A stretch of 64,000 bases of DNA. It comes from an uncultured delta proteobacterium. Its GTDB lineage: Bacteria > Desulfobacterota > Binatia > DP-6. The position numbers and the translations under genes are program-made. Under the pieces are notes generated by a model. The model saw only the letters and a program-made list of their open reading frames with translations. It did not search any database and was not told where the DNA came from. The stretch is from assembly GCA_963815115.1 (NCBI GenBank), contig CAWFFN010000012.1:608001-672000 (forward strand), in the 5' to 3' direction. Shown here in pieces: positions 1-6,045 of the stretch (its first letter is position 1; the number at the start of each line of letters is the position of its first letter).

Positions 1-470
1 GTGGCGGTCAGCGTCTGCGAGTCCAGGAGGGTGCCGTCATGGTCGAAGCCCTGGGCCGTCACGATGCTGGCCCCCGCGCAGTCCGCGCCGAGCGTTCCGG
101 TGTCGAACTGGAAGGACTGGATCGGCGGATAGAAGGTGAGGAACTCGGGCGTCTGGGCGAGTCCGCCGGTCACCACGGGGAACGCGCTGACGAAGTAGAT
201 CACGTTCGGCAGGGAGATGTACGGGACCGAGGCGGGGTCGAACCCCGGGTTGAACAGGCCGCCTGCGTTCTGGCCGAACCCGGCGAACTGGACCCCCCGA
301 TTGACGTACTCGTTGGTGACGATGGGGAAGGGAATCTGCTGCCCCGGTCCGAGAGGGATGTCGTCGAAGTTGACGAGCGTCGCGGTCACTGGCGGAGGGG
401 TGAGCTGCGCCCCCGCACTGCCGACGAGCACCGTGAGTAGCAGGGCGCTCGCGATCCGTGAGGTTCTCAT
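1..470 (-). CDS. Secreted hypothetical protein, tandem paralog of 950..3079 (3' part runs off the window)
   Basis: Missing from the ORF track because it has no stop in the window. Reading minus from ATG 470 gives MRTSRIASALLLTVLVGSAGAQLTPPPVTATLVNFDD...VTNEYVNRGVQFAGFGQN...PEFLTFYPPIQ, colinear with the N-terminus of the 709-aa protein. Signal peptide ends AGA|Q. Confidence 0.9.
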   Translation of the reverse strand, partial: MRTSRIASALLLTVLVGSAGAQLTPPPVTATLVNFDDIPLGPGQQIPFPIVTNEYVNRGVQFAGFGQNAGGLFNPGFDPASVPYISLPNVIYFVSAFPVVTGGLAQTPEFLTFYPPIQSFQFDTGTLGADCAGASIVTAQGFDHDGTLLDSQTLTA

Positions 471-870
471 ACGAAGCCCCCAGTTTGATGACGTTGTGCA
501 GCGTTGGACGGACGATTTCGTCACCGGTGCATCAGCGCCGGGACGATGCCCCGGGCCTCGGGTCAGGCAGCTCCCATGGGGTCACCCTCCTGAAGGCGCC
601 TGGGACCTGGACGGATCCGCTGCGTTTTCCGGAGGGCTCAGCATGCGCCGCGGGGCACCTTCGTCACGCGAGACGGCGGGCTGGCTGCGCTGGGACGAAG
701 TGACAGCTTCGCCCAGTCTCCGGCTGCTTCCGGGTGAGGTCGACGGCTCGGCGATGTCCCGGATGCATCGGCACGCGGGCCGTAGACATCCGGCGTGGCC
801 TCGGCGGAGCAGGTGAGTACTGACACGTCAGTTTCGGTGGCCGGTACCCCTCCTCCGAGACGGATGTCAA
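471..870 (-). promoter_or_regulatory. Promoter plus long conserved 5' leader, copy 1
   Basis: TTGACA on the minus strand at 870..865, inverted repeat ACTGAC-AC-GTCAGT at 819..832, several hairpins. Nearly the same sequence lies at 3080..3389 upstream of the paralog. Confidence 0.6.
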
Positions 871-889
871 GCATCTTCGGACGACGGAC

Positions 890-920
890 CCCGGCGCCGG
901 CCGCGAGGGCCGGCGCCGGG
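890..920 (-). terminator. GC-rich hairpin downstream of the 709-aa gene, probable terminator
   Basis: CCCGGCGCCGGCC-GCGAG-GGCCGGCGCCGGG, a 13-bp stem 30 nt after the stop at 950. No clear U-tract. Confidence 0.5.
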
Positions 921-949
921 AGGTCGATCGCCAGGACCGCAGCGTGTGG

Positions 950-3079
950 CTACGGCACGGCGAAGAACTGCGCGTTGCCGGGCAGGCTGAGCGAGCCCGG
1001 TCCCGGCAGATCGGCCAGCCCGTCGAGTGCCAGGCTGCCGGTCTGCGGGATGCAGAAGTTGCTCACGAGCACGCCGGCGTGCGGCGCGCCGTCGGTCAGA
1101 TCACCCGCCGGCGATCCGTTCTGCGTGATCGCCTGCGCCCCCGCCTGTCCGAAGGCCCCCGCATGCCCCTGCGACGGGCAGAACAGCCCGTCCGCTGCCG
1201 GGGTCGTCACCGGGGACGAGGTCAGCGGATTGAGGCTGATCGGGAGGGTGGCTACGAAGATTCCCGCGGTCGGCAGACAGTCGAGGCTCGTCTGCGTGCT
1301 GTTGTTGGTGGTGCAGGGCTGCCCGGCGTTGGCGCCCCAGTTGCAGGCACCGCCGTCGCAGATCGGGCAGACCGTCGGCTGGCCGAGGGTCAGGTAGACG
1401 AACGACGCCAGCTCGATGTCGACCGTCGACTCGCCCGTGGCCAGGTTGAGGGTTCCGCTCGCATCCTGCGCGAAGGCGTTCACCACGCAGCTCGAGGGGA
1501 AGCCGTTCACGAGGACCGGCGGCCCGAAGTAGCAGGTCGGGTCGGTCTGGCAGCCGCCCGGCGCGAAGCATGCCGAGTCGTCGGTGCACTCGACCGGCGG
1601 GTTGTTGACGCAGTGCTTGGTGGTGCCCTGCGGCCCGACGGAGCAGTCCGCCCGGCTCGTCCCCAGGCTGCCGGACAGCGTCGTGCCGTCGGGGCTGTCG
1701 AGGACCGTGGTGGCGTTCTCCGGAATGACCGACGGGTTCACCGTCGCCGCGCCGCCGCCGATGTAGAGGCAGCCCGCCCCGAGGTCGGCGAGCTTGGTGC
1801 CGACGGTGTCGGAGTCGAGCTCACCCGAGAACGGCGGATCGGGCGGGATGACACAGTTCGCCGTCCCCGCGCTCGTCGTGAACGACAGGTGCTGGCCGAG
1901 CGGCGGCGGGGCGGTCGTCGTCGTGGTGCTCGTCGTGGTGGTCGTGGTGGTGGTGGTGGGCACGCTCTGCTGGCGATTCAGGTCGATCGAGAACTGATCG
2001 ATGAGCTGCTCGATCGGGGCGAGCTGCGTCGGCGTGCCGCACGCCTTGAGAGACGAGTTGAACGACGCGCCGGCCTTCGTCACACACGCCGGGTCCGTCG
2101 CGACGCCGCTCTTCGCGGCGGACGAGAAGCACTTGGCCACGGCCTGCAGCTTCTTGCCGATGGACGTGAGCTTCTTGCCGAAGCAGACGTCCGGCCCCGG
2201 CGACCCGCCGGTCACCATCTGGATCGCCTGCCCGATGACGGCGTTGACCGCCGCCCCGGTGGCGTCGCTGTCCGGGCTGACCAGGCAGTCACCCTTCTTC
2301 TGCGCATTGGTGAAGCCCTTGGTGAGACCGTCGGTCGCCTTCTGGAGACAGGCGTCGTCCACGGGGAGCCCCTTCTGGAGCGCCTTGGCGTAGCAGCTGG
2401 CCACCGCCTTCGCCTGCTTCCCGGCGGCGTCGTCGAGGCCCTGCGCGCACTTGCTCGCCTGTTGGTCGACCGGAATGAACGCGACGTTGTCCATGCTGAA
2501 GATCTCGACGCCGAAGAAGAGCTCGCCCGGCAGTCCGCAGCTGTGGCTGCTGGTGACGACCACCCGCTCCGCGCCCGGTGGCGGCAGGGTCAGGGCGAGG
2601 GTCTCGCCCTCCACGGTGGCGGTCAGCGTCGTCGAGCCCAGGAGGGTGCCGTCATGGGCGAAGCCCTGGATGGTCACGACGCTGGCGCCCTCGCAGTCCT
2701 GCCCGAACGTGCCGGTGTCGAACTGGAAGTACTGGATCGGCGGATAGAAGGTGAGGAACTCGGGCGATTGCGCGAGGCCGCCGGTGATCACCGGAAACGC
2801 GCTCAGGAAGTAGATGTTGTTCGGCGGGGAGATGTACGGCGCCTCCCCGGGGCCGAACGATGGGTTGTAGAGCCCGCCGCTGTTCTGACCGAACCCGGCG
2901 AACTGGACGCCCCGGTTCACATACTCGTTGGTCACGACGTTGAAGGGGATCTGTCCATTCGGGTTGAGATCGTCGAAGTTGACGAGGGTCGCGGTCACCG
3001 GCGGAGAGATGAGCTGCGCCCCCGCACTGCCGGCGAGCACCGTGAGCAGCAGAGCGTTCGCGATCCGTGAGATTCTCAT
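950..3079 (-). CDS. Secreted multidomain Cys-rich hypothetical protein with poly-Thr linker (709 aa)
   Basis: Signal peptide MRISRIANALLLTVLAGSAGA, a beta-rich N-domain, a Lys/Cys-rich helical region, a PTTTTTTTTTSTTTTT linker and a Cys-rich C-domain. AGGAG RBS upstream. Confidence 0.9.
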   Translation of the reverse strand: MRISRIANALLLTVLAGSAGAQLISPPVTATLVNFDDLNPNGQIPFNVVTNEYVNRGVQFAGFGQNSGGLYNPSFGPGEAPYISPPNNIYFLSAFPVITGGLAQSPEFLTFYPPIQYFQFDTGTFGQDCEGASVVTIQGFAHDGTLLGSTTLTATVEGETLALTLPPPGAERVVVTSSHSCGLPGELFFGVEIFSMDNVAFIPVDQQASKCAQGLDDAAGKQAKAVASCYAKALQKGLPVDDACLQKATDGLTKGFTNAQKKGDCLVSPDSDATGAAVNAVIGQAIQMVTGGSPGPDVCFGKKLTSIGKKLQAVAKCFSSAAKSGVATDPACVTKAGASFNSSLKACGTPTQLAPIEQLIDQFSIDLNRQQSVPTTTTTTTTTSTTTTTAPPPLGQHLSFTTSAGTANCVIPPDPPFSGELDSDTVGTKLADLGAGCLYIGGGAATVNPSVIPENATTVLDSPDGTTLSGSLGTSRADCSVGPQGTTKHCVNNPPVECTDDSACFAPGGCQTDPTCYFGPPVLVNGFPSSCVVNAFAQDASGTLNLATGESTVDIELASFVYLTLGQPTVCPICDGGACNWGANAGQPCTTNNSTQTSLDCLPTAGIFVATLPISLNPLTSSPVTTPAADGLFCPSQGHAGAFGQAGAQAITQNGSPAGDLTDGAPHAGVLVSNFCIPQTGSLALDGLADLPGPGSLSLPGNAQFFAVP

Positions 3080-3389
3080 GTGAGAGCTCCTGGTTGCATG
3101 ACGTTGTGCAGCGTTTGACGAACGACTTCGTCACCGGCGCGGAGCGCCGGGCCGATTCTCCGGGCCTCGCCTCAGGCAGCTCCCATGGGGTCACCCTCCT
3201 GAAGGCGCCTGACCTGGACGGAGTCGCTGCGTTTTCCGGAGGGCTCAGCATGCGCCGCGGGCACCTTCGTCACGCGAGACGGCGGGCTGGCTGCGCTGGG
3301 ACGAAGTGACAGCTTCGCCCAGTCTCCGGTGAGTACTGCCACGTCAGTCTTCCCGGTGGCGGGTACTCCTCTCGGTAGACAGGTGTCAA
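3080..3389 (-). promoter_or_regulatory. Promoter plus long conserved 5' leader, copy 2
   Basis: TTGACA on the minus strand at 3389..3384, imperfect inverted repeat ACTGCC-AC-GTCAGT at 3335..3348. Homologous to 471..870 but lacks the 90-nt hairpin. Confidence 0.6.
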
Positions 3390-3500
3390 GAACCTTGATG
3401 CGGACTCGGTGGTTATCCGTGTGCGACGCTTCCGGTGGTCGCCCAGCGATCGGCACGGACGCCGCTTCTGGCCACAGGCCCCGCGTGCTAGACGGCCCGG

Positions 3501-5798
3501 ATGTCGAAGCCGCTCGTGTATCGCGACGGGGAGCCTTTTCCCGGCCGCGCCGCCGCATCCTTGAACGAGTCCCTCCCGGCCTGGCCGGTGCCCGCGCGGG
3601 CTCCCGCGGGCGCTCCCAACGTCGTCCTGATCGTGCTCGACGACGTCGGCTTCGCCCAGCTCGGCTGCTTCGGCTCGGACATCGACACGCCACGTTTCGA
3701 TGGGCTCGCGGCGGACGGCCTGCGCTACCGCAACTTCCACACCACGGCGATGTGCTCGCCGACCCGCGCCTGTCTTCTCACGGGACGCAATCACCACACC
3801 TGTGCCATGGGCGGGATCACCGACCTCTGCATGGGGTTCCCCGGCTACAACGGGCGCATCCCGAAGTCGTGCGGGTTCGTCTCCGAGGTGCTCCGCCAGG
3901 CAGGGTGGGCGACGTTCGCCGTCGGCAAGTGGCATCTCGCTCCCTCCGACGAGCAGCATGCCGCCGCGCCGCGTGATCGCTGGCCGCTCGGGCAGGGCTT
4001 CGAGCGCTACTACGGGTTCATGGGCGGCGAGACCAACCAGTTCGCGCCCGACCTGGTGTGCGACAACTCGCCGGCACGGTTCACGCCGCGCGACGGCTAC
4101 CATCTCACCGAGGACCTCGTCGATCATGCGATCCAGCGCGTGACCGACGTTCGCACGGCCGATCCCGACAAGCCGTTCTTCCTCTACCTGGCGCTCGGTG
4201 CGTGCCATGCGCCGCATCAGGCGCCGCCCGAGTGGATCGAGCGGCACCGTGGGCGCTTCGACGGGGGCTGGGATGTGTGGCGCGAGCGCACGCTGGCGCG
4301 CCAGATCGCCGCCGGCATCGTTCCGCCCGGCACCACGCTGTCGGCCCGTCCGTCGTGGGTACAGGAGTGGGCCGCGCTGCCGGCGGACGAGCGGCGCGCC
4401 TACTCGCGCATGATGGAGGTCTACGCTGGCTTCCTGTCGCACACCGACCATCACGTCGGCCGCCTGCTCGATTTCCTCGCCACGAGCGGCGAGCTCGACC
4501 GCACGCTCGTCCTCGCGCTCAGCGACAACGGGGCGAGCGCGGAGGGCGGCGCCCAGGGCACGTTCAACGAGAACTTCATCTTCAACGGCCTGCCGCACGA
4601 CGTCGAGGCGACCCGTGCCATGCTCGACAAGCTGGGCAGCGCACAGACCTACGGACACTACCCGTGGGGATGGGCGCTGGCCGGGAACACGCCGTTCCGT
4701 CGCTGGAAGCGCGAGACGCACGAGGGCGGCATCGGCGATCCGCTGATCGTGCGCTGGCCGGCGATCGCCGACCGCGGCGCGGTACGCGCGCAGTACGTCC
4801 ACGCCATCGACGTGGCGGCGACCGTTCTCGACGTCACGGGCACCGAGATGCCGGCGTTGCTGAACGGCGTGCCGCAGGAGCCGCTGGCCGGCGCCAGCTT
4901 CGCCCGCTCGCTCACAGACGCGGCCGCACCGGAGCACCGCGAGACGCAGTACTACGAGCAGTTCGCCTGCCGCGCCATCTACCATCGTGGCTGGAAGGCC
5001 GTGACGTACCACGCGATGATGGATGGACTGTACACCGACGAGGACGATCCCGATCGGCCCTTCGACCAGGACCGCTGGGAGCTCTACCACGTCGCCGAGG
5101 ATCCCTCCGAGTCGCACGACCTCGTGGCGGCGGAGCCGGAGAAGCTGCGCGCGCTGCAGGAGCTGTGGTGGAGCGAGGCGGGGCGCTACGGGGTGCTGCC
5201 GCTCCAGTCGCGACGCATGTTCGCCGTCGGGCGGCCGCATGCGGTGCGGCCGCGCGAGCGGGTCGTGCTGCGATCGGGCGCCGCGCCTCTGCCCGAGGAT
5301 CTGGCGCCGAACGTCAAGATGCGGCCGCACCGGATCATCGCCGACGTCGAGATCGCCAGCGGCAGCGAGGGCGTCCTCGTGGCCCAGGGCGGTCGCTTCG
5401 GGGGCTTCAGCCTGTACCTGCACGGCGGGCGCCTGCACTACACCACCAACTTCGCCGGCATCGAGCGCACCACCGTTTCGAGCCCGCAGCCGCTCGCTCC
5501 CGGGCGTCACCTTCTGGGTGTCGCGCTCGAGCCCGCCGGCGGCATGGGCATGCGTGCCGAGCTGGTCGTCGGGGACCGGGTGGTCGCCGTGGCCGAGGCG
5601 GCGCGCACGGCGCCGTTCCGCTTCGCCCTCGCCGGCGAGGGTCTCTGCTGCGGCTACGACGACGGCACGCCCGTGGCGGACGTCTACGAGTCGCCCTTCG
5701 CGTTCACCGGAACGATCCACGAGGCGGTGATCGACGTCTCCGGCATGCCGGTGGTCGATCTGGTGGCGGAGCTGCGGCGCGCGTGGATGACCCAGTGA
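3501..5798 (+). CDS. Arylsulfatase (formylglycine-dependent, Cys-type) with C-terminal beta-sandwich extension
   Basis: PNVVLIVLDDVG, sulfatase signature CSPTRACLLTGR, GKWHL, SDNGAS and WELY motifs. Confidence 0.95.
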   Translation: MSKPLVYRDGEPFPGRAAASLNESLPAWPVPARAPAGAPNVVLIVLDDVGFAQLGCFGSDIDTPRFDGLAADGLRYRNFHTTAMCSPTRACLLTGRNHHTCAMGGITDLCMGFPGYNGRIPKSCGFVSEVLRQAGWATFAVGKWHLAPSDEQHAAAPRDRWPLGQGFERYYGFMGGETNQFAPDLVCDNSPARFTPRDGYHLTEDLVDHAIQRVTDVRTADPDKPFFLYLALGACHAPHQAPPEWIERHRGRFDGGWDVWRERTLARQIAAGIVPPGTTLSARPSWVQEWAALPADERRAYSRMMEVYAGFLSHTDHHVGRLLDFLATSGELDRTLVLALSDNGASAEGGAQGTFNENFIFNGLPHDVEATRAMLDKLGSAQTYGHYPWGWALAGNTPFRRWKRETHEGGIGDPLIVRWPAIADRGAVRAQYVHAIDVAATVLDVTGTEMPALLNGVPQEPLAGASFARSLTDAAAPEHRETQYYEQFACRAIYHRGWKAVTYHAMMDGLYTDEDDPDRPFDQDRWELYHVAEDPSESHDLVAAEPEKLRALQELWWSEAGRYGVLPLQSRRMFAVGRPHAVRPRERVVLRSGAAPLPEDLAPNVKMRPHRIIADVEIASGSEGVLVAQGGRFGGFSLYLHGGRLHYTTNFAGIERTTVSSPQPLAPGRHLLGVALEPAGGMGMRAELVVGDRVVAVAEAARTAPFRFALAGEGLCCGYDDGTPVADVYESPFAFTGTIHEAVIDVSGMPVVDLVAELRRAWMTQ

Positions 5799-6045
5799 TC
5801 GGCGCGATCGCGCTGCTCGCCGGCGATGCAGCGGTGCTCGGTCTTCATGCAATCGAGGGCTACGTTCGTTGAACAATGTACAGTGAGCGCAGAAACGATC
5901 GCGGGCGTCGACGCTCGCGACCCGTGCAGCGGCCACGTGCACGACGGCCTGGCGGGCGGGATTGCTGAATGTTCTCGATGGCCGCACGAAGGGCGCATTC
6001 GACGGGGTAATCCCACTGTCATCATCCAGTAGACGCCGGCTGCCA

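What the first reader, a model, noticed from the sequence alone, without database searches (positions are those of the whole stretch)
471..870. Duplicated structured 5' leader with a precise 90-nt hairpin indel: candidate novel cis-regulatory RNA
Both tandem paralogs carry a 310-400 nt non-coding region from a TTGACA element to the ATG (second copy 3080..3389). Its core appears better conserved than the synonymous sites of the CDSs. Shared stems include CTGGG-A-CGAAG/CTTCG-CCCAG and CCCTCC..GAA/TTC..GGAGGG. GACGAAG (3300..3306) can alternatively pair with CTTCGTC at 3265 or 3126, a switch-like arrangement. Copy 1 has an extra segment, 724..813, that is itself a closed stem-loop (CTGCT-T-CCG/CGGAGCAG, GAGGTC/GGCCTC, GATGTC/GACATC), as expected for an optional helix in a structured RNA. 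I could not match it to a riboswitch consensus I know.
Basis: partly seen in the sequence, partly recalled or inferred. Interest (0 to 1): 0.7.

Follow-up and report, generated by a model that had tools for sequence, protein, structure and literature searches.

The report
Structured leader RNA with tiny uORF
The long untranslated region ahead of a family of secreted-protein genes in an uncultured soil bacterium holds a repressor binding site, a previously undescribed two-hairpin RNA element and a conserved four-codon mini-gene, which together look like a new gene-control leader of unknown trigger.

Summary
The genes are on the minus strand, and there are three tandem paralogs, not two (the third lies just outside the window). 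Each carries this leader. The leader is modular.

- A TTGACA-N18-TAnnnS promoter.
- A 14-bp palindrome at the predicted start site. The same palindrome precedes two TetR-family genes, so it is probably a TetR operator, a DNA element.
- A variable spacer that holds the 90-nt hairpin.
- A 71-nt two-hairpin RNA motif: H1 with invariant loop CUGUCA, and H2 with a loop ending AAGUGCC. Across 24 copies, 90.9% of cells pair, 12 of 18 pairs show double changes, and 0 of 500 shuffles reach this. It has no Rfam match.
- A strong Shine-Dalgarno site followed by an exactly four-codon uORF, kept in 13 leaders with nine different peptides.

The motif was found in one genus of 65 sampled in its class, and in soil metagenome contigs. 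The proposed "switch" pairing and the CCCTCC/GGAGGG stem are not conserved. The 90-nt indel is most likely a deletion in copy 2 within a variable spacer, not an optional helix of the motif.

Verdict: a real, new, narrowly distributed leader RNA motif with a mini-uORF. Its effector and mechanism are untested, and no RNA data were available.

The parts
889..920 (-). G+C-rich terminator-like hairpin (CCCGGCGCCGG...CCGGCGCCGGGG, no U tail) after the stop codon of paralog C. The same type follows other paralogs.
   Evidence: The simple terminator scan finds none because there is no T run.
865..870 (-). -35 hexamer TTGACA of copy B
   Evidence: Conserved at N17-18 from a TAnnnn -10 in paralog and TetR promoters; coordinates.
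841..846 (-). -10-like hexamer TACCGG of copy B, 18 nt after the -35
   Evidence: Not found by the consensus scanner, which requires T at position 6.
819..832 (-). Palindrome ACTGACGTGTCAGT, the putative TetR-family operator at the predicted transcription start
   Evidence: There are 8 perfect ACTGACATGTCAGT sites plus 3 variants in the genome. All lie in front of paralog-family genes or TetR genes.
724..813 (-). 90-nt hairpin in the variable spacer. Present in copies A and B and, diverged, in L089; deleted in copy C.
690..716 (-). H1 hairpin with invariant loop CUGUCA (copy B)
   Evidence: Model R1 hit at window 644-717; covariation.
675..689 (-). Conserved 15-nt linker between H1 and H2
645..674 (-). 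H2 hairpin, with a loop ending AAGGUGCC (copy B)
585..601 (-). Conserved block AGGCGCCUUCAGGAGGG, the Shine-Dalgarno site of the uORF
563..577 (-). Four-codon uORF, AUG GGA GCU GCC UGA
507..541 (-). Two small hairpins after the uORF (CCGGCGC..GCACCGG and GACGAA..UCCGUC). They are kept among copies A, B and C only.
475..483 (-). Shine-Dalgarno region of the main gene (copy B)
1..470 (-). 5' part of paralog B. The CDS runs off the window; the ATG is at 468-470.
3384..3389 (-). -35 hexamer TTGACA of copy C
3360..3365 (-). -10-like hexamer TACCCG of copy C
3335..3348 (-). Palindrome variant ACTGACGTGGCAGT (copy C)
3251..3323 (-). H1-linker-H2 motif of copy C (H1 at 3296-3322, H2 at 3252-3280)
   Evidence: Model R1 hit of 78.4 bits.
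3194..3210 (-). uORF Shine-Dalgarno block (copy C)
3172..3186 (-). Four-codon uORF (copy C)
950..3079 (-). Paralog C: a 709-aa secreted, Cys-rich protein of no known family

Best explanation
The region is the promoter plus a long (about 270-365 nt) 5' leader of a fast-evolving family of secreted-protein genes. Control is layered.

1. **Transcription (inferred).** A sigma-70-type promoter (TTGACA-N18-TAnnnS) is gated by a TetR-family repressor. The repressor binds the 14-bp palindrome ACTGAC(A/G)TGTCAGT that sits 2-13 nt after the -10.
2. **RNA structure (shown by covariation).** The transcribed leader folds into a 71-nt two-hairpin element. H1 has 9-11 bp and an invariant hexaloop CUGUCA. A conserved 15-nt linker follows. 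H2 has 7-8 bp and a loop ending AAGUGCC.
3. **RNA function (inferred).** The stems drift and compensate while the loops and linker stay fixed. The module also persists alone at a conserved locus with no paralog downstream. I therefore infer that it is an autonomous recognition site for a trans-acting factor. A sequence-specific RNA-binding protein is most likely; a small ligand is less likely. The factor would set stability or translation for the whole gene family.
4. **uORF (conservation shown, translation and role inferred).** Ribosomes load at a strong SD (GGAGGG) and translate a uORF of exactly four codons. It ends about 75-110 nt before the main start. This links the state of the upstream element to expression of the main gene, for example by protecting the leader from Rho or RNases, or by remodelling it.

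The 90-nt hairpin is a dispensable part of a variable spacer.

My odds for the individual claims:
- real structured RNA: about 0.9
- cis-regulatory role: about 0.6
- uORF is translated: about 0.7
- effector is a protein: about 0.35
- effector is a ligand: about 0.15
For: **Motif model and distribution**
- Model R1 finds 9 copies in this genome.
- It finds 3 in G001, 2 in G003 and none in the other 22 genomes of the family.
- Across the class it hits 3 of 121 genomes and 1 of 65 genera.
- 10 further copies occur among the 80 metagenome loci examined.

**Structure**
- On the 24-copy alignment (21 distinct rows), 90.9% of cells pair, against 31-47% when partners are slid.
- 12 of 18 pairs have changes on both sides, and 0 of 500 shuffles reach any of the five measures.
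- G-U cells number 24 against 10 A-C cells, which favours RNA on the gene strand.
- All 5 differences of copy A from copies B and C inside H1-H2 fall in stems and keep pairing.

**Context**
- 10 of the 14 genome copies lie 65-465 nt upstream of a paralog on the same strand.

**Core conservation**
- Copies B and C differ at 2 of 157 positions, against 0.217 at four-fold sites.

**Operator**
- There are 8 perfect and 3 variant palindromes, all just after a TTGACA/TAnnnn promoter of a paralog-family gene or of a TetR gene.
- The two TetR genes match TetR_N at 3.4e-16 and 1.6e-14.

**uORF**
- The pattern SD-ATG-N9-TGA occurs 29 times in 13.8 Mb (27 distinct sites).
- 8 of these are in 8 of the 15 paralog leaders, where 0.0006 per 300 nt is expected.
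- Further four-codon uORFs occur in G001 (L068) and in L089, L114, L130 and L131.
- The nine peptides are MGAA, MKAA, MRAG, MRVG, MRSV, MGIR, MGIV, MRGI and MRLG.

**Stand-alone copies**
- Six are conserved from about -15 to +45 around the motif, with different downstream genes.
Against: **Missing data**
- No transcript data exist, so the start site, transcription of the leader and translation of the uORF are all inferred (one search listed no RNA run).
- The consensus promoter and terminator scanner found nothing in 1-3600.

**Limits of the covariation evidence**
- The alignment was fitted to the model.
- The metagenome copies were pre-selected with a pattern that fixes parts of the H1 loop and of H2. 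H2 variation is therefore under-sampled.
- The sequences are related paralogs, which inflates shuffle tests.

**Folding**
- The whole leader folds only marginally better than shuffles (z -1.56, 13 of 200).
- No consensus structure was found between the uORF and the main start.
- Partition-function folding shows no consistent masking of either SD.
- No expression platform could therefore be defined.

**Exceptions**
- 4 of 14 genome copies are not followed by a full paralog.
- In L054, L059 and L093 the 'uORF' SD/AUG block is the real start of the main gene.
- L067 has AUA instead of AUG.
- L114 and L130 carry a second in-frame ATG one codon upstream, which would make five codons.
- G019 leaders have ATG-TAG, or no AUG at all.

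**Not identified**
- No candidate binding protein or ligand was found.
Confidence: 0.6

Rival explanations
1. H1-H2 is the aptamer of a new riboswitch class. A small ligand binds the conserved loops and linker and changes access to the uORF or main ribosome-binding site.
For: The motif has conserved unpaired nucleotides flanked by covarying stems. It lies in 5' leaders of one gene family. Its two-hairpin shape recalls guanidine-II, where two stem-loops with conserved loops are joined by a linker (abstract of PMC5558903). It matches no known family.
Against: No conserved expression platform or alternative pairing was found. Stand-alone copies have no gene to regulate. Distribution is very narrow, 1 of 65 genera. 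The regulated protein has no known function that would suggest a ligand. A TetR already provides small-molecule sensing.
Confidence: 0.15
2. The motif is mainly a trans-acting small RNA or RNA decoy. The stand-alone locus is the functional gene. The leader copies either release the same small RNA by premature termination or processing, or compete for its partner.
For: The stand-alone copies score highest (97 and 82.4 bits). They are conserved as an island with an extra third hairpin, while the flanks and downstream genes differ. In three loci the motif lies directly after a TetR gene rather than after a promoter.
Against: Most copies (10 of 14) lie at a fairly fixed position ahead of a paralog on the sense strand. 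No promoter or terminator is evident around the stand-alone copy. No RNA data are available.
Confidence: 0.12
3. H1 and H2 are DNA-level protein binding sites, for example further operators, and not RNA structure.
For: Both are inverted repeats near a promoter. The H1 loop CTGTCA shares TGTCA with the operator half-site.
Against: The arms vary and compensate while the spacers (loops) are invariant. This is the reverse of what a dimeric DNA-binding site shows. G-U pairs are strand-specific, 24 against 10 A-C. Copies lie 12-200 nt downstream of the predicted start site, and also after TetR genes.
Confidence: 0.06
4. Core conservation is only recent duplication or gene conversion among the tandem copies. 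The stems are chance in 70% G+C DNA and there is no function.
For: Copies A and B are identical over the last ~500 codons, so gene conversion does act here. The full-leader fold is not significant. The 90-nt hairpin of copy B is no better than shuffles.
Against: The motif and the uORF recur ahead of paralogs with 47-60% protein identity, where the rest of the leader cannot be aligned. They also recur in two other genomes and in metagenome contigs, with compensatory changes.
Confidence: 0.03
5. The conserved core encodes a small protein, on either strand.
For: There are open frames at 458-703 (+) and 3067-3309 (+). A sense frame in copy C runs from the palindrome to the uORF stop.
Against: Indels of 1 and 2 nt between copies B and C shift the frame for about 17 codons on the plus strand and close the sense frame in copy B. 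H2 loop lengths differ by 1, 2 and 4 nt among copies. The substitutions are compensatory in stems.
Confidence: 0.02

Closest known systems
Guanidine-II riboswitch (mini-ykkC)
   Same: Both have two short stem-loops with conserved loops joined by a linker, in 5' leaders (abstract of PMC5558903, seen in the listing).
   Different: Here the loops are unlike each other: a 6-nt CUGUCA and an 11-14-nt loop ending AAGUGCC, not two ACGR tetraloops. The linker is conserved rather than variable. The genes differ. The Rfam scan, which I recall includes mini-ykkC, gave no hit.
Sensory uORF leaders such as toiL-topAI of E. coli
   Same: Both have a short uORF with its own SD in a long leader upstream of the main ribosome-binding site. 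In toiL, uORF translation changes RNA structure and Rho-dependent termination (abstract of PMC12121999).
   Different: Here the uORF has only four codons, and its length is conserved while its peptide is not. No occluding structure around the main RBS could be shown. Nothing is known about Rho or antibiotics in this case.
TetR-family repressor/operator systems
   Same: A 14-bp perfect palindrome overlaps the start region of the target promoters and of the TetR genes' own promoters.
   Different: The targets are about ten dispersed promoters of a secreted-protein family rather than one divergent efflux gene. Binding is not demonstrated.
Orphan structured RNA motifs found by comparative genomics (Rfam-style cis-regulatory candidates)
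   Same: The motif is defined by covariation, conserved loops and a consistent gene context, with no known effector.
   Different: It is not in Rfam 15 and is restricted to one genus plus soil metagenome contigs.

Membership tests
Any Rfam 15 family | Covariance-model score at or above the family's gathering threshold | tested here: not met
   Window 1-6000 at E<=10 gave 4 sub-threshold hits, none inside 471-869 or 3080-3389. Six other motif loci at E<=1 gave only serC leader, 22.5 bits against a threshold of 35, outside the motif.
Guanidine-II riboswitch | Two hairpins capped by identical ACGR tetraloops | tested here: not met
   The loops are CUGUCA and ..AAGUGCC.
Guanidine-II riboswitch | Association with guanidine carboxylase or SugE-type genes | tested here: not met
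   The downstream genes are P0001 paralogs of no known family.
Riboswitch (generic) | Conserved aptamer with covarying helices and conserved unpaired positions | tested here: met
Riboswitch (generic) | Expression platform: mutually exclusive pairing with a terminator or an SD | tested here: inconclusive
   The alternative helix has no covariation. No consensus structure downstream. No consistent SD masking.
Riboswitch (generic) | Direct ligand binding | not testable with these tools
   Needs in-line probing or ITC.
Regulatory uORF / leader peptide | SD and start codon at proper spacing, with ORF length conserved across homologous leaders | tested here: met
   13 leaders have an SD, 4-9 nt, then AUG, three codons and a stop. 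In L114 and L130 a second in-frame ATG one codon upstream would make five codons. One further leader has AUA.
Regulatory uORF / leader peptide | Evidence that the uORF is translated and affects the main gene | not testable with these tools
   No RNA or ribosome data are available.
TetR operator | Palindromic site overlapping the target promoter or start site | tested here: met
   The palindrome lies 2-13 nt after the -10 at 11 sites in G000.
TetR operator | Cognate TetR gene carrying the same site (autoregulation) | tested here: met
   The C8 and C7 TetR genes each have the palindrome in front.
TetR operator | Binding of the repressor to the site | not testable with these tools
   Needs EMSA or footprinting.
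Intrinsic terminator / classical attenuator | G+C hairpin followed by a U tract | tested here: not met
   The scan found 0 sites in 1-3600. The hairpins after the uORF have no U run.
Mobile repeat (MITE/REP) | Dispersed copies without fixed gene context, with terminal repeats | tested here: not met
   The copies have a fixed orientation and context. The 90-nt segment occurs only in copies A and B.

The most novel reading that the evidence does not exclude
H1-H2 is the sensor of a new class of RNA switch, binding either a ligand or a dedicated protein. Its output is read through an exactly four-codon uORF. It works in series with a TetR operator to coordinate a whole family of about ten secreted-protein genes. 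A conserved stand-alone copy acts as a decoy or small RNA for the same effector.
Probability: 0.15. Interest if true: 0.75.

Novelty: new member of a known kind. Interest (0 to 1): 0.45.

Why it matters
If the reading is right, this is an undescribed leader RNA motif coupled to one of the shortest conserved bacterial uORFs. In that uORF the length is under selection and the peptide is not.

The leader sits in series with a TetR operator and is reused across a rapidly diversifying family of secreted proteins in an uncultured soil lineage. That gives a compact, testable case for two questions. One is how very short uORFs act. The other is how a paralog family is co-regulated at both the DNA and the RNA level.

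The narrow distribution and the lack of a cultured host limit its reach.

Tried and rejected
**RNA expression.** No RNA holder was listed for window 1-3500, so the start site and expression could not be examined.

**Switch helix.** The helix between the H2 loop (AAGUG) and the H1 3' arm (CACUU) was rejected as unsupported. Three pairs are invariant, one pair has a double change, and 414 of 500 shuffles pair as well. By eye I also considered loop-loop kissing, GKCAC with GUGCC. It has a central U-C mismatch in 22 of 24 copies, so I did not pursue it.

**H2 extension.** Extending H2 into the linker has weak support: 11 of 23 cells are unpaired at one pair.

**Structure after the uORF.** No consensus structure was found between the uORF and the main start. 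Folding gave no consistent masking of either SD. I looked at C and G counts after the uORF for a Rho-loading region and saw no clear C excess.

**Coding potential.** Rejected on either strand.

**90-nt segment as a repeat.** Rejected; it occurs only in copies A and B.

**Wider distribution.** The H2-only model R2 added only G019:C82 convincingly. G020:C122 and G019:C179 look like chance. The genome contigs pattern scan gave 9 loci. Three are real, on contigs of two MAGs titled 'uncultured delta proteobacterium'. L078 reached only 23.8 bits and lacks the motif's conserved loop sequences (H1 reads GCUGGCAC; H2 lacks AAGUGCC). The other five pattern loci gave no convincing match, the best being L070 at 13.9 bits. 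More copies therefore exist that I did not see.

**Protein function.** P0001 has no Pfam, NCBIfam, PDB-sequence or Atlas lead. The AlphaFold model is poor (mean pLDDT 50.5), so the Foldseek resemblance of the N-terminal beta-sandwich to carbohydrate-binding and BtuJ-type modules is only a weak lead.

**Papers.** For PMC12121999 I saw the abstract and outline. For PMC5558903 and the other guanidine-II papers I saw only the search listing with the start of each abstract. The Binatia search was a guess at the taxon and was not used. No search for this motif in print was possible by sequence. My only statement is that it is not in Rfam 15. Supplements were not consulted.
Full report
**What is there.** The two genes flanking the finding are on the minus strand. 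The window is G000:C12:608001-672000. There are three tandem paralogs, not two.
- Copy C is at window 950-3079.
- Copy B ends at window 470.
- Copy A lies just outside the window.

Each encodes a secreted, Cys-rich protein of about 709-715 aa with no Pfam, NCBIfam or PDB-sequence match. The genome holds 15 full-length paralogs. All three tandem copies carry the leader. Copies A and B have the 90-nt segment and copy C lacks it.

**Check of the observation.** The coordinates, the indel, the stems and the complementarities are as described.

Divergence between the copies:

| Region | Difference |
|---|---|
| CDS four-fold sites, B-C | 0.217 |
| CDS four-fold sites, A-C | 0.211 |
| CDS four-fold sites, A-B, first 200 codons | 0.17-0.39 |
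| CDS, A-B, last ~500 codons | near-identical (gene conversion) |
| Leader: promoter plus palindrome | 10-25% |
| Leader: 90-nt segment, A-B | 25 of 90 |
| Leader: H1-H2 | 0-6% |
| Leader: uORF block | 0-2.6% |
| Leader: segment after the uORF | 19-21% |

The CDS values come and the leader values. The core is indeed much better conserved than neutral sites.

**The leader is shared by distant paralogs.** A profile of the three copies found weak matches upstream of paralogs on other contigs. I built covariance model R1 (71 positions, two hairpins) from ten copies. Its hits were:
- 9 copies in this genome;
- 3 in G001 and 2 in G003, with none in the other 22 genomes of the family;
- 3 of 121 genomes and 1 of 65 genera across the class.

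A degenerate pattern scan of species-representative genomes gave 9 loci. Only three are real, on contigs of two MAGs titled 'uncultured delta proteobacterium'. Ten of the 80 are real at E<=0.01.

**Structure.** On the 24 copies (21 distinct rows), 90.9% of cells form standard pairs, against 31-47% when partners are slid by 1-3 columns. Twelve of 18 pairs change on both sides, and none of 500 shuffles reaches any of the five measures. The 14 genome copies alone give the same picture.

H1's stem was not constrained by the search pattern, and 8 of its 11 pairs carry double changes. G-U cells outnumber A-C cells 24 to 10, which favours RNA on the gene strand. Invariant or near-invariant positions are the H1 loop with its closing pair (GCUGUCAC), parts of the linker, and GUGCC in the H2 loop.

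Caveats:
- The alignment is fitted to the model.
- H2 was partly fixed by the pattern.
- Paralogs are related, which inflates shuffle tests.

No Rfam family matches, either in the window or at six other motif loci.

**Context.** Ten of the 14 genome copies lie 65-465 nt upstream of a paralog on the same strand. The other four are as follows.
- L055 and L064 are orthologous stand-alone copies after an alpha/beta-hydrolase gene. Together with four metagenome copies they form a conserved island from about -15 to +45 around the motif. The island includes a third small hairpin, and the downstream genes differ.
- L066, like the metagenome loci L114 and L130, is followed only by a remnant encoding the C-terminal ~35 residues of the paralog.
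- L068 precedes a different secreted protein.

In L062, L065 and L068 the motif lies directly after a TetR-family gene.

**Promoter and operator.** Upstream of the motif, paralog leaders share TTGACA, 17-18 nt, a TAnnnn hexamer, and then, 2-13 nt later, the palindrome ACTGACATGTCAGT. The genome has 8 perfect copies and the 3 C12 variants. My own back-of-envelope expectation for a given 14-mer of this composition is about 0.003, from the base frequencies.

All 11 sites precede a paralog-family gene or one of two TetR genes. Both TetR genes match TetR_N, at 3.4e-16 and 1.6e-14, and they are 54% identical to each other. Reading this as a TetR operator regulon is an inference from established TetR biology. 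Binding was not tested. The consensus promoter scanner finds nothing, because the -10 lacks the final T.

**The uORF.** Downstream of H2, ten leaders share a block GGC(C/G)CCUUCGGGAGGG. It is followed 4-9 nt later by AUG, exactly three codons, and UGA.

Genome-wide, the pattern SD-ATG-N9-TGA occurs 29 times (27 distinct sites). Eight of these are in 8 of the 15 paralog leaders, including two (C9) that lack H1-H2. Further cases:
- MRLG in G001;
- MKAA in L089;
- MRSV in L114 and L130, with a second in-frame ATG one codon upstream;
- MGIV with a UAG stop in L131.

The internal nine nucleotides are almost saturated with change, while the length, the start and the stop are kept.

Exceptions:
- L067 has AUA.
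- In L054, L059 and L093 the same block is the real start of the main gene.
- In genus g4, G019 has ATG-TAG in one leader and no AUG in the other, although that second leader keeps H2.

The stop lies about 75-110 nt before the main AUG. I could not define a conserved structure in that interval, nor any consistent masking of either SD.

**The 90-nt segment.** The spacer between palindrome and H1 varies from about 12 to 200 nt among leaders. The segment is unique to copies A and B within the genome.

Metagenome locus L089 is the positional ortholog of copy C. It has the same divergent sulfatase at 92% identity and a paralog at 71% identity. It carries a diverged 111-nt spacer. The short form of copy C is therefore most simply a deletion.

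Copies A and B share a fold with one compensatory pair, and three sequences still share an inner hairpin. The copy B fold is no better than shuffles. The segment is thus a dispensable hairpin in a variable spacer, not a helix of the conserved motif.

**Claims not supported.**
- The alternative GACGAAG/CUUCGUC pairing is confined to C12-type leaders, and its conserved core (AAGUG:CACUU) shows no covariation.
- The CCCUCC:GGAGGG stem is absent from L089 and from the other leaders.
- Open frames across the core are broken by 1- and 2-nt indels between copies.

**Mechanism.** Shown: a conserved two-hairpin RNA structure, a conserved four-codon ORF with its own SD, and a conserved palindrome shared with TetR promoters.

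Inferred:
- TetR gates transcription.
- H1-H2 is an autonomous recognition module for a trans-acting factor. Its loops and linker are invariant, its stems are free to drift, and it persists without a downstream paralog.
- Translation of the mini-uORF links that module to the main gene.

I rate a protein effector above a ligand. A TetR already supplies ligand sensing, and no expression platform is visible.

**Comparison and novelty.** In shape the nearest known element is guanidine-II, two hairpins with conserved loops (abstract of PMC5558903). In logic the nearest are sensory uORF leaders such as toiL-topAI (abstract of PMC12121999). Membership in either is not met. I file the element as a new member of the known kind 'structured 5' leader RNA with uORF'. 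It is restricted to one genus plus soil metagenomes.

**Verdict.** This is a genuine, uncatalogued, narrowly distributed leader RNA motif with a conserved mini-uORF and a TetR-type operator. Function and effector are untested. Interest 0.45.

Noticed in passing
window 819-832 and 3335-3348; also G000 C5:464444, C5:468521, C5:1276469, C5:1279014, C7:238307, C7:865150, C8:358797, C12:779573: A putative TetR regulon. The perfect 14-bp palindrome ACTGACATGTCAGT lies just after a TTGACA/TAnnnn promoter at 8 sites, plus 3 variants. Every site is in front of a paralog-family gene or one of two TetR genes.
   Followed up: partly
G000 C12:603644-608470 (copies A and B; window 1-470 is the 5' part of copy B): Copies A and B are identical or nearly so over the last ~500 codons but 12-18% different over the first 200 codons. 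This points to recent gene conversion of the 3' part only.
   Followed up: no
L114:409-1308, L130:1698-2262, L066 (G001:C7:813522 onward): The motif and uORF are followed by a mini-gene or remnant that encodes only the conserved C-terminal ~35 residues of the paralog. In L114 this is fused to a signal peptide. The arrangement recurs in three loci.
   Followed up: no
L055 (G000 C5:465976-466090), L064, L096, L139, L142, L154: A stand-alone class of the motif lies after an alpha/beta-hydrolase gene. It has an extra third hairpin (CAGGG-NNNAA-CCCUG) and different downstream genes.
   Followed up: partly
L065:1982-2030 (G003:C10:606337-606384): A second, weaker H2-like hairpin (32 bits with R2) sits immediately before the SD of the paralog, about 450 nt after the full motif.
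   Followed up: no
window 889-920 (-), and after other paralogs: Strong G+C hairpins of the form CCCGGCGCCGG-loop-CCGGCGCCGGG, without a U tail, follow the paralog stop codons. They are likely the organism's terminator type, which the standard scan does not see.
   Followed up: no
window 950-3079 (-), protein P0001: The protein has a signal peptide, a beta-sandwich, a Cys-containing helical repeat region, a poly-Thr linker and a Cys-rich C-terminal domain. The model is low-confidence (pLDDT 50.5). The N-terminal part weakly resembles carbohydrate-binding and BtuJ-like modules.
   Followed up: partly
window 977-1066 (+): A sub-threshold Rfam match to Cyano-2 (26 bits against a gathering score of 40) lies antisense inside the CDS of copy C. 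It is probably chance.
   Followed up: no
window 3501-5798 (+): A sulfatase-like gene lies divergent from copy C. Its ortholog (92% identity) has the same position in metagenome locus L089, which anchors the orthology of the copy C leader.
   Followed up: partly
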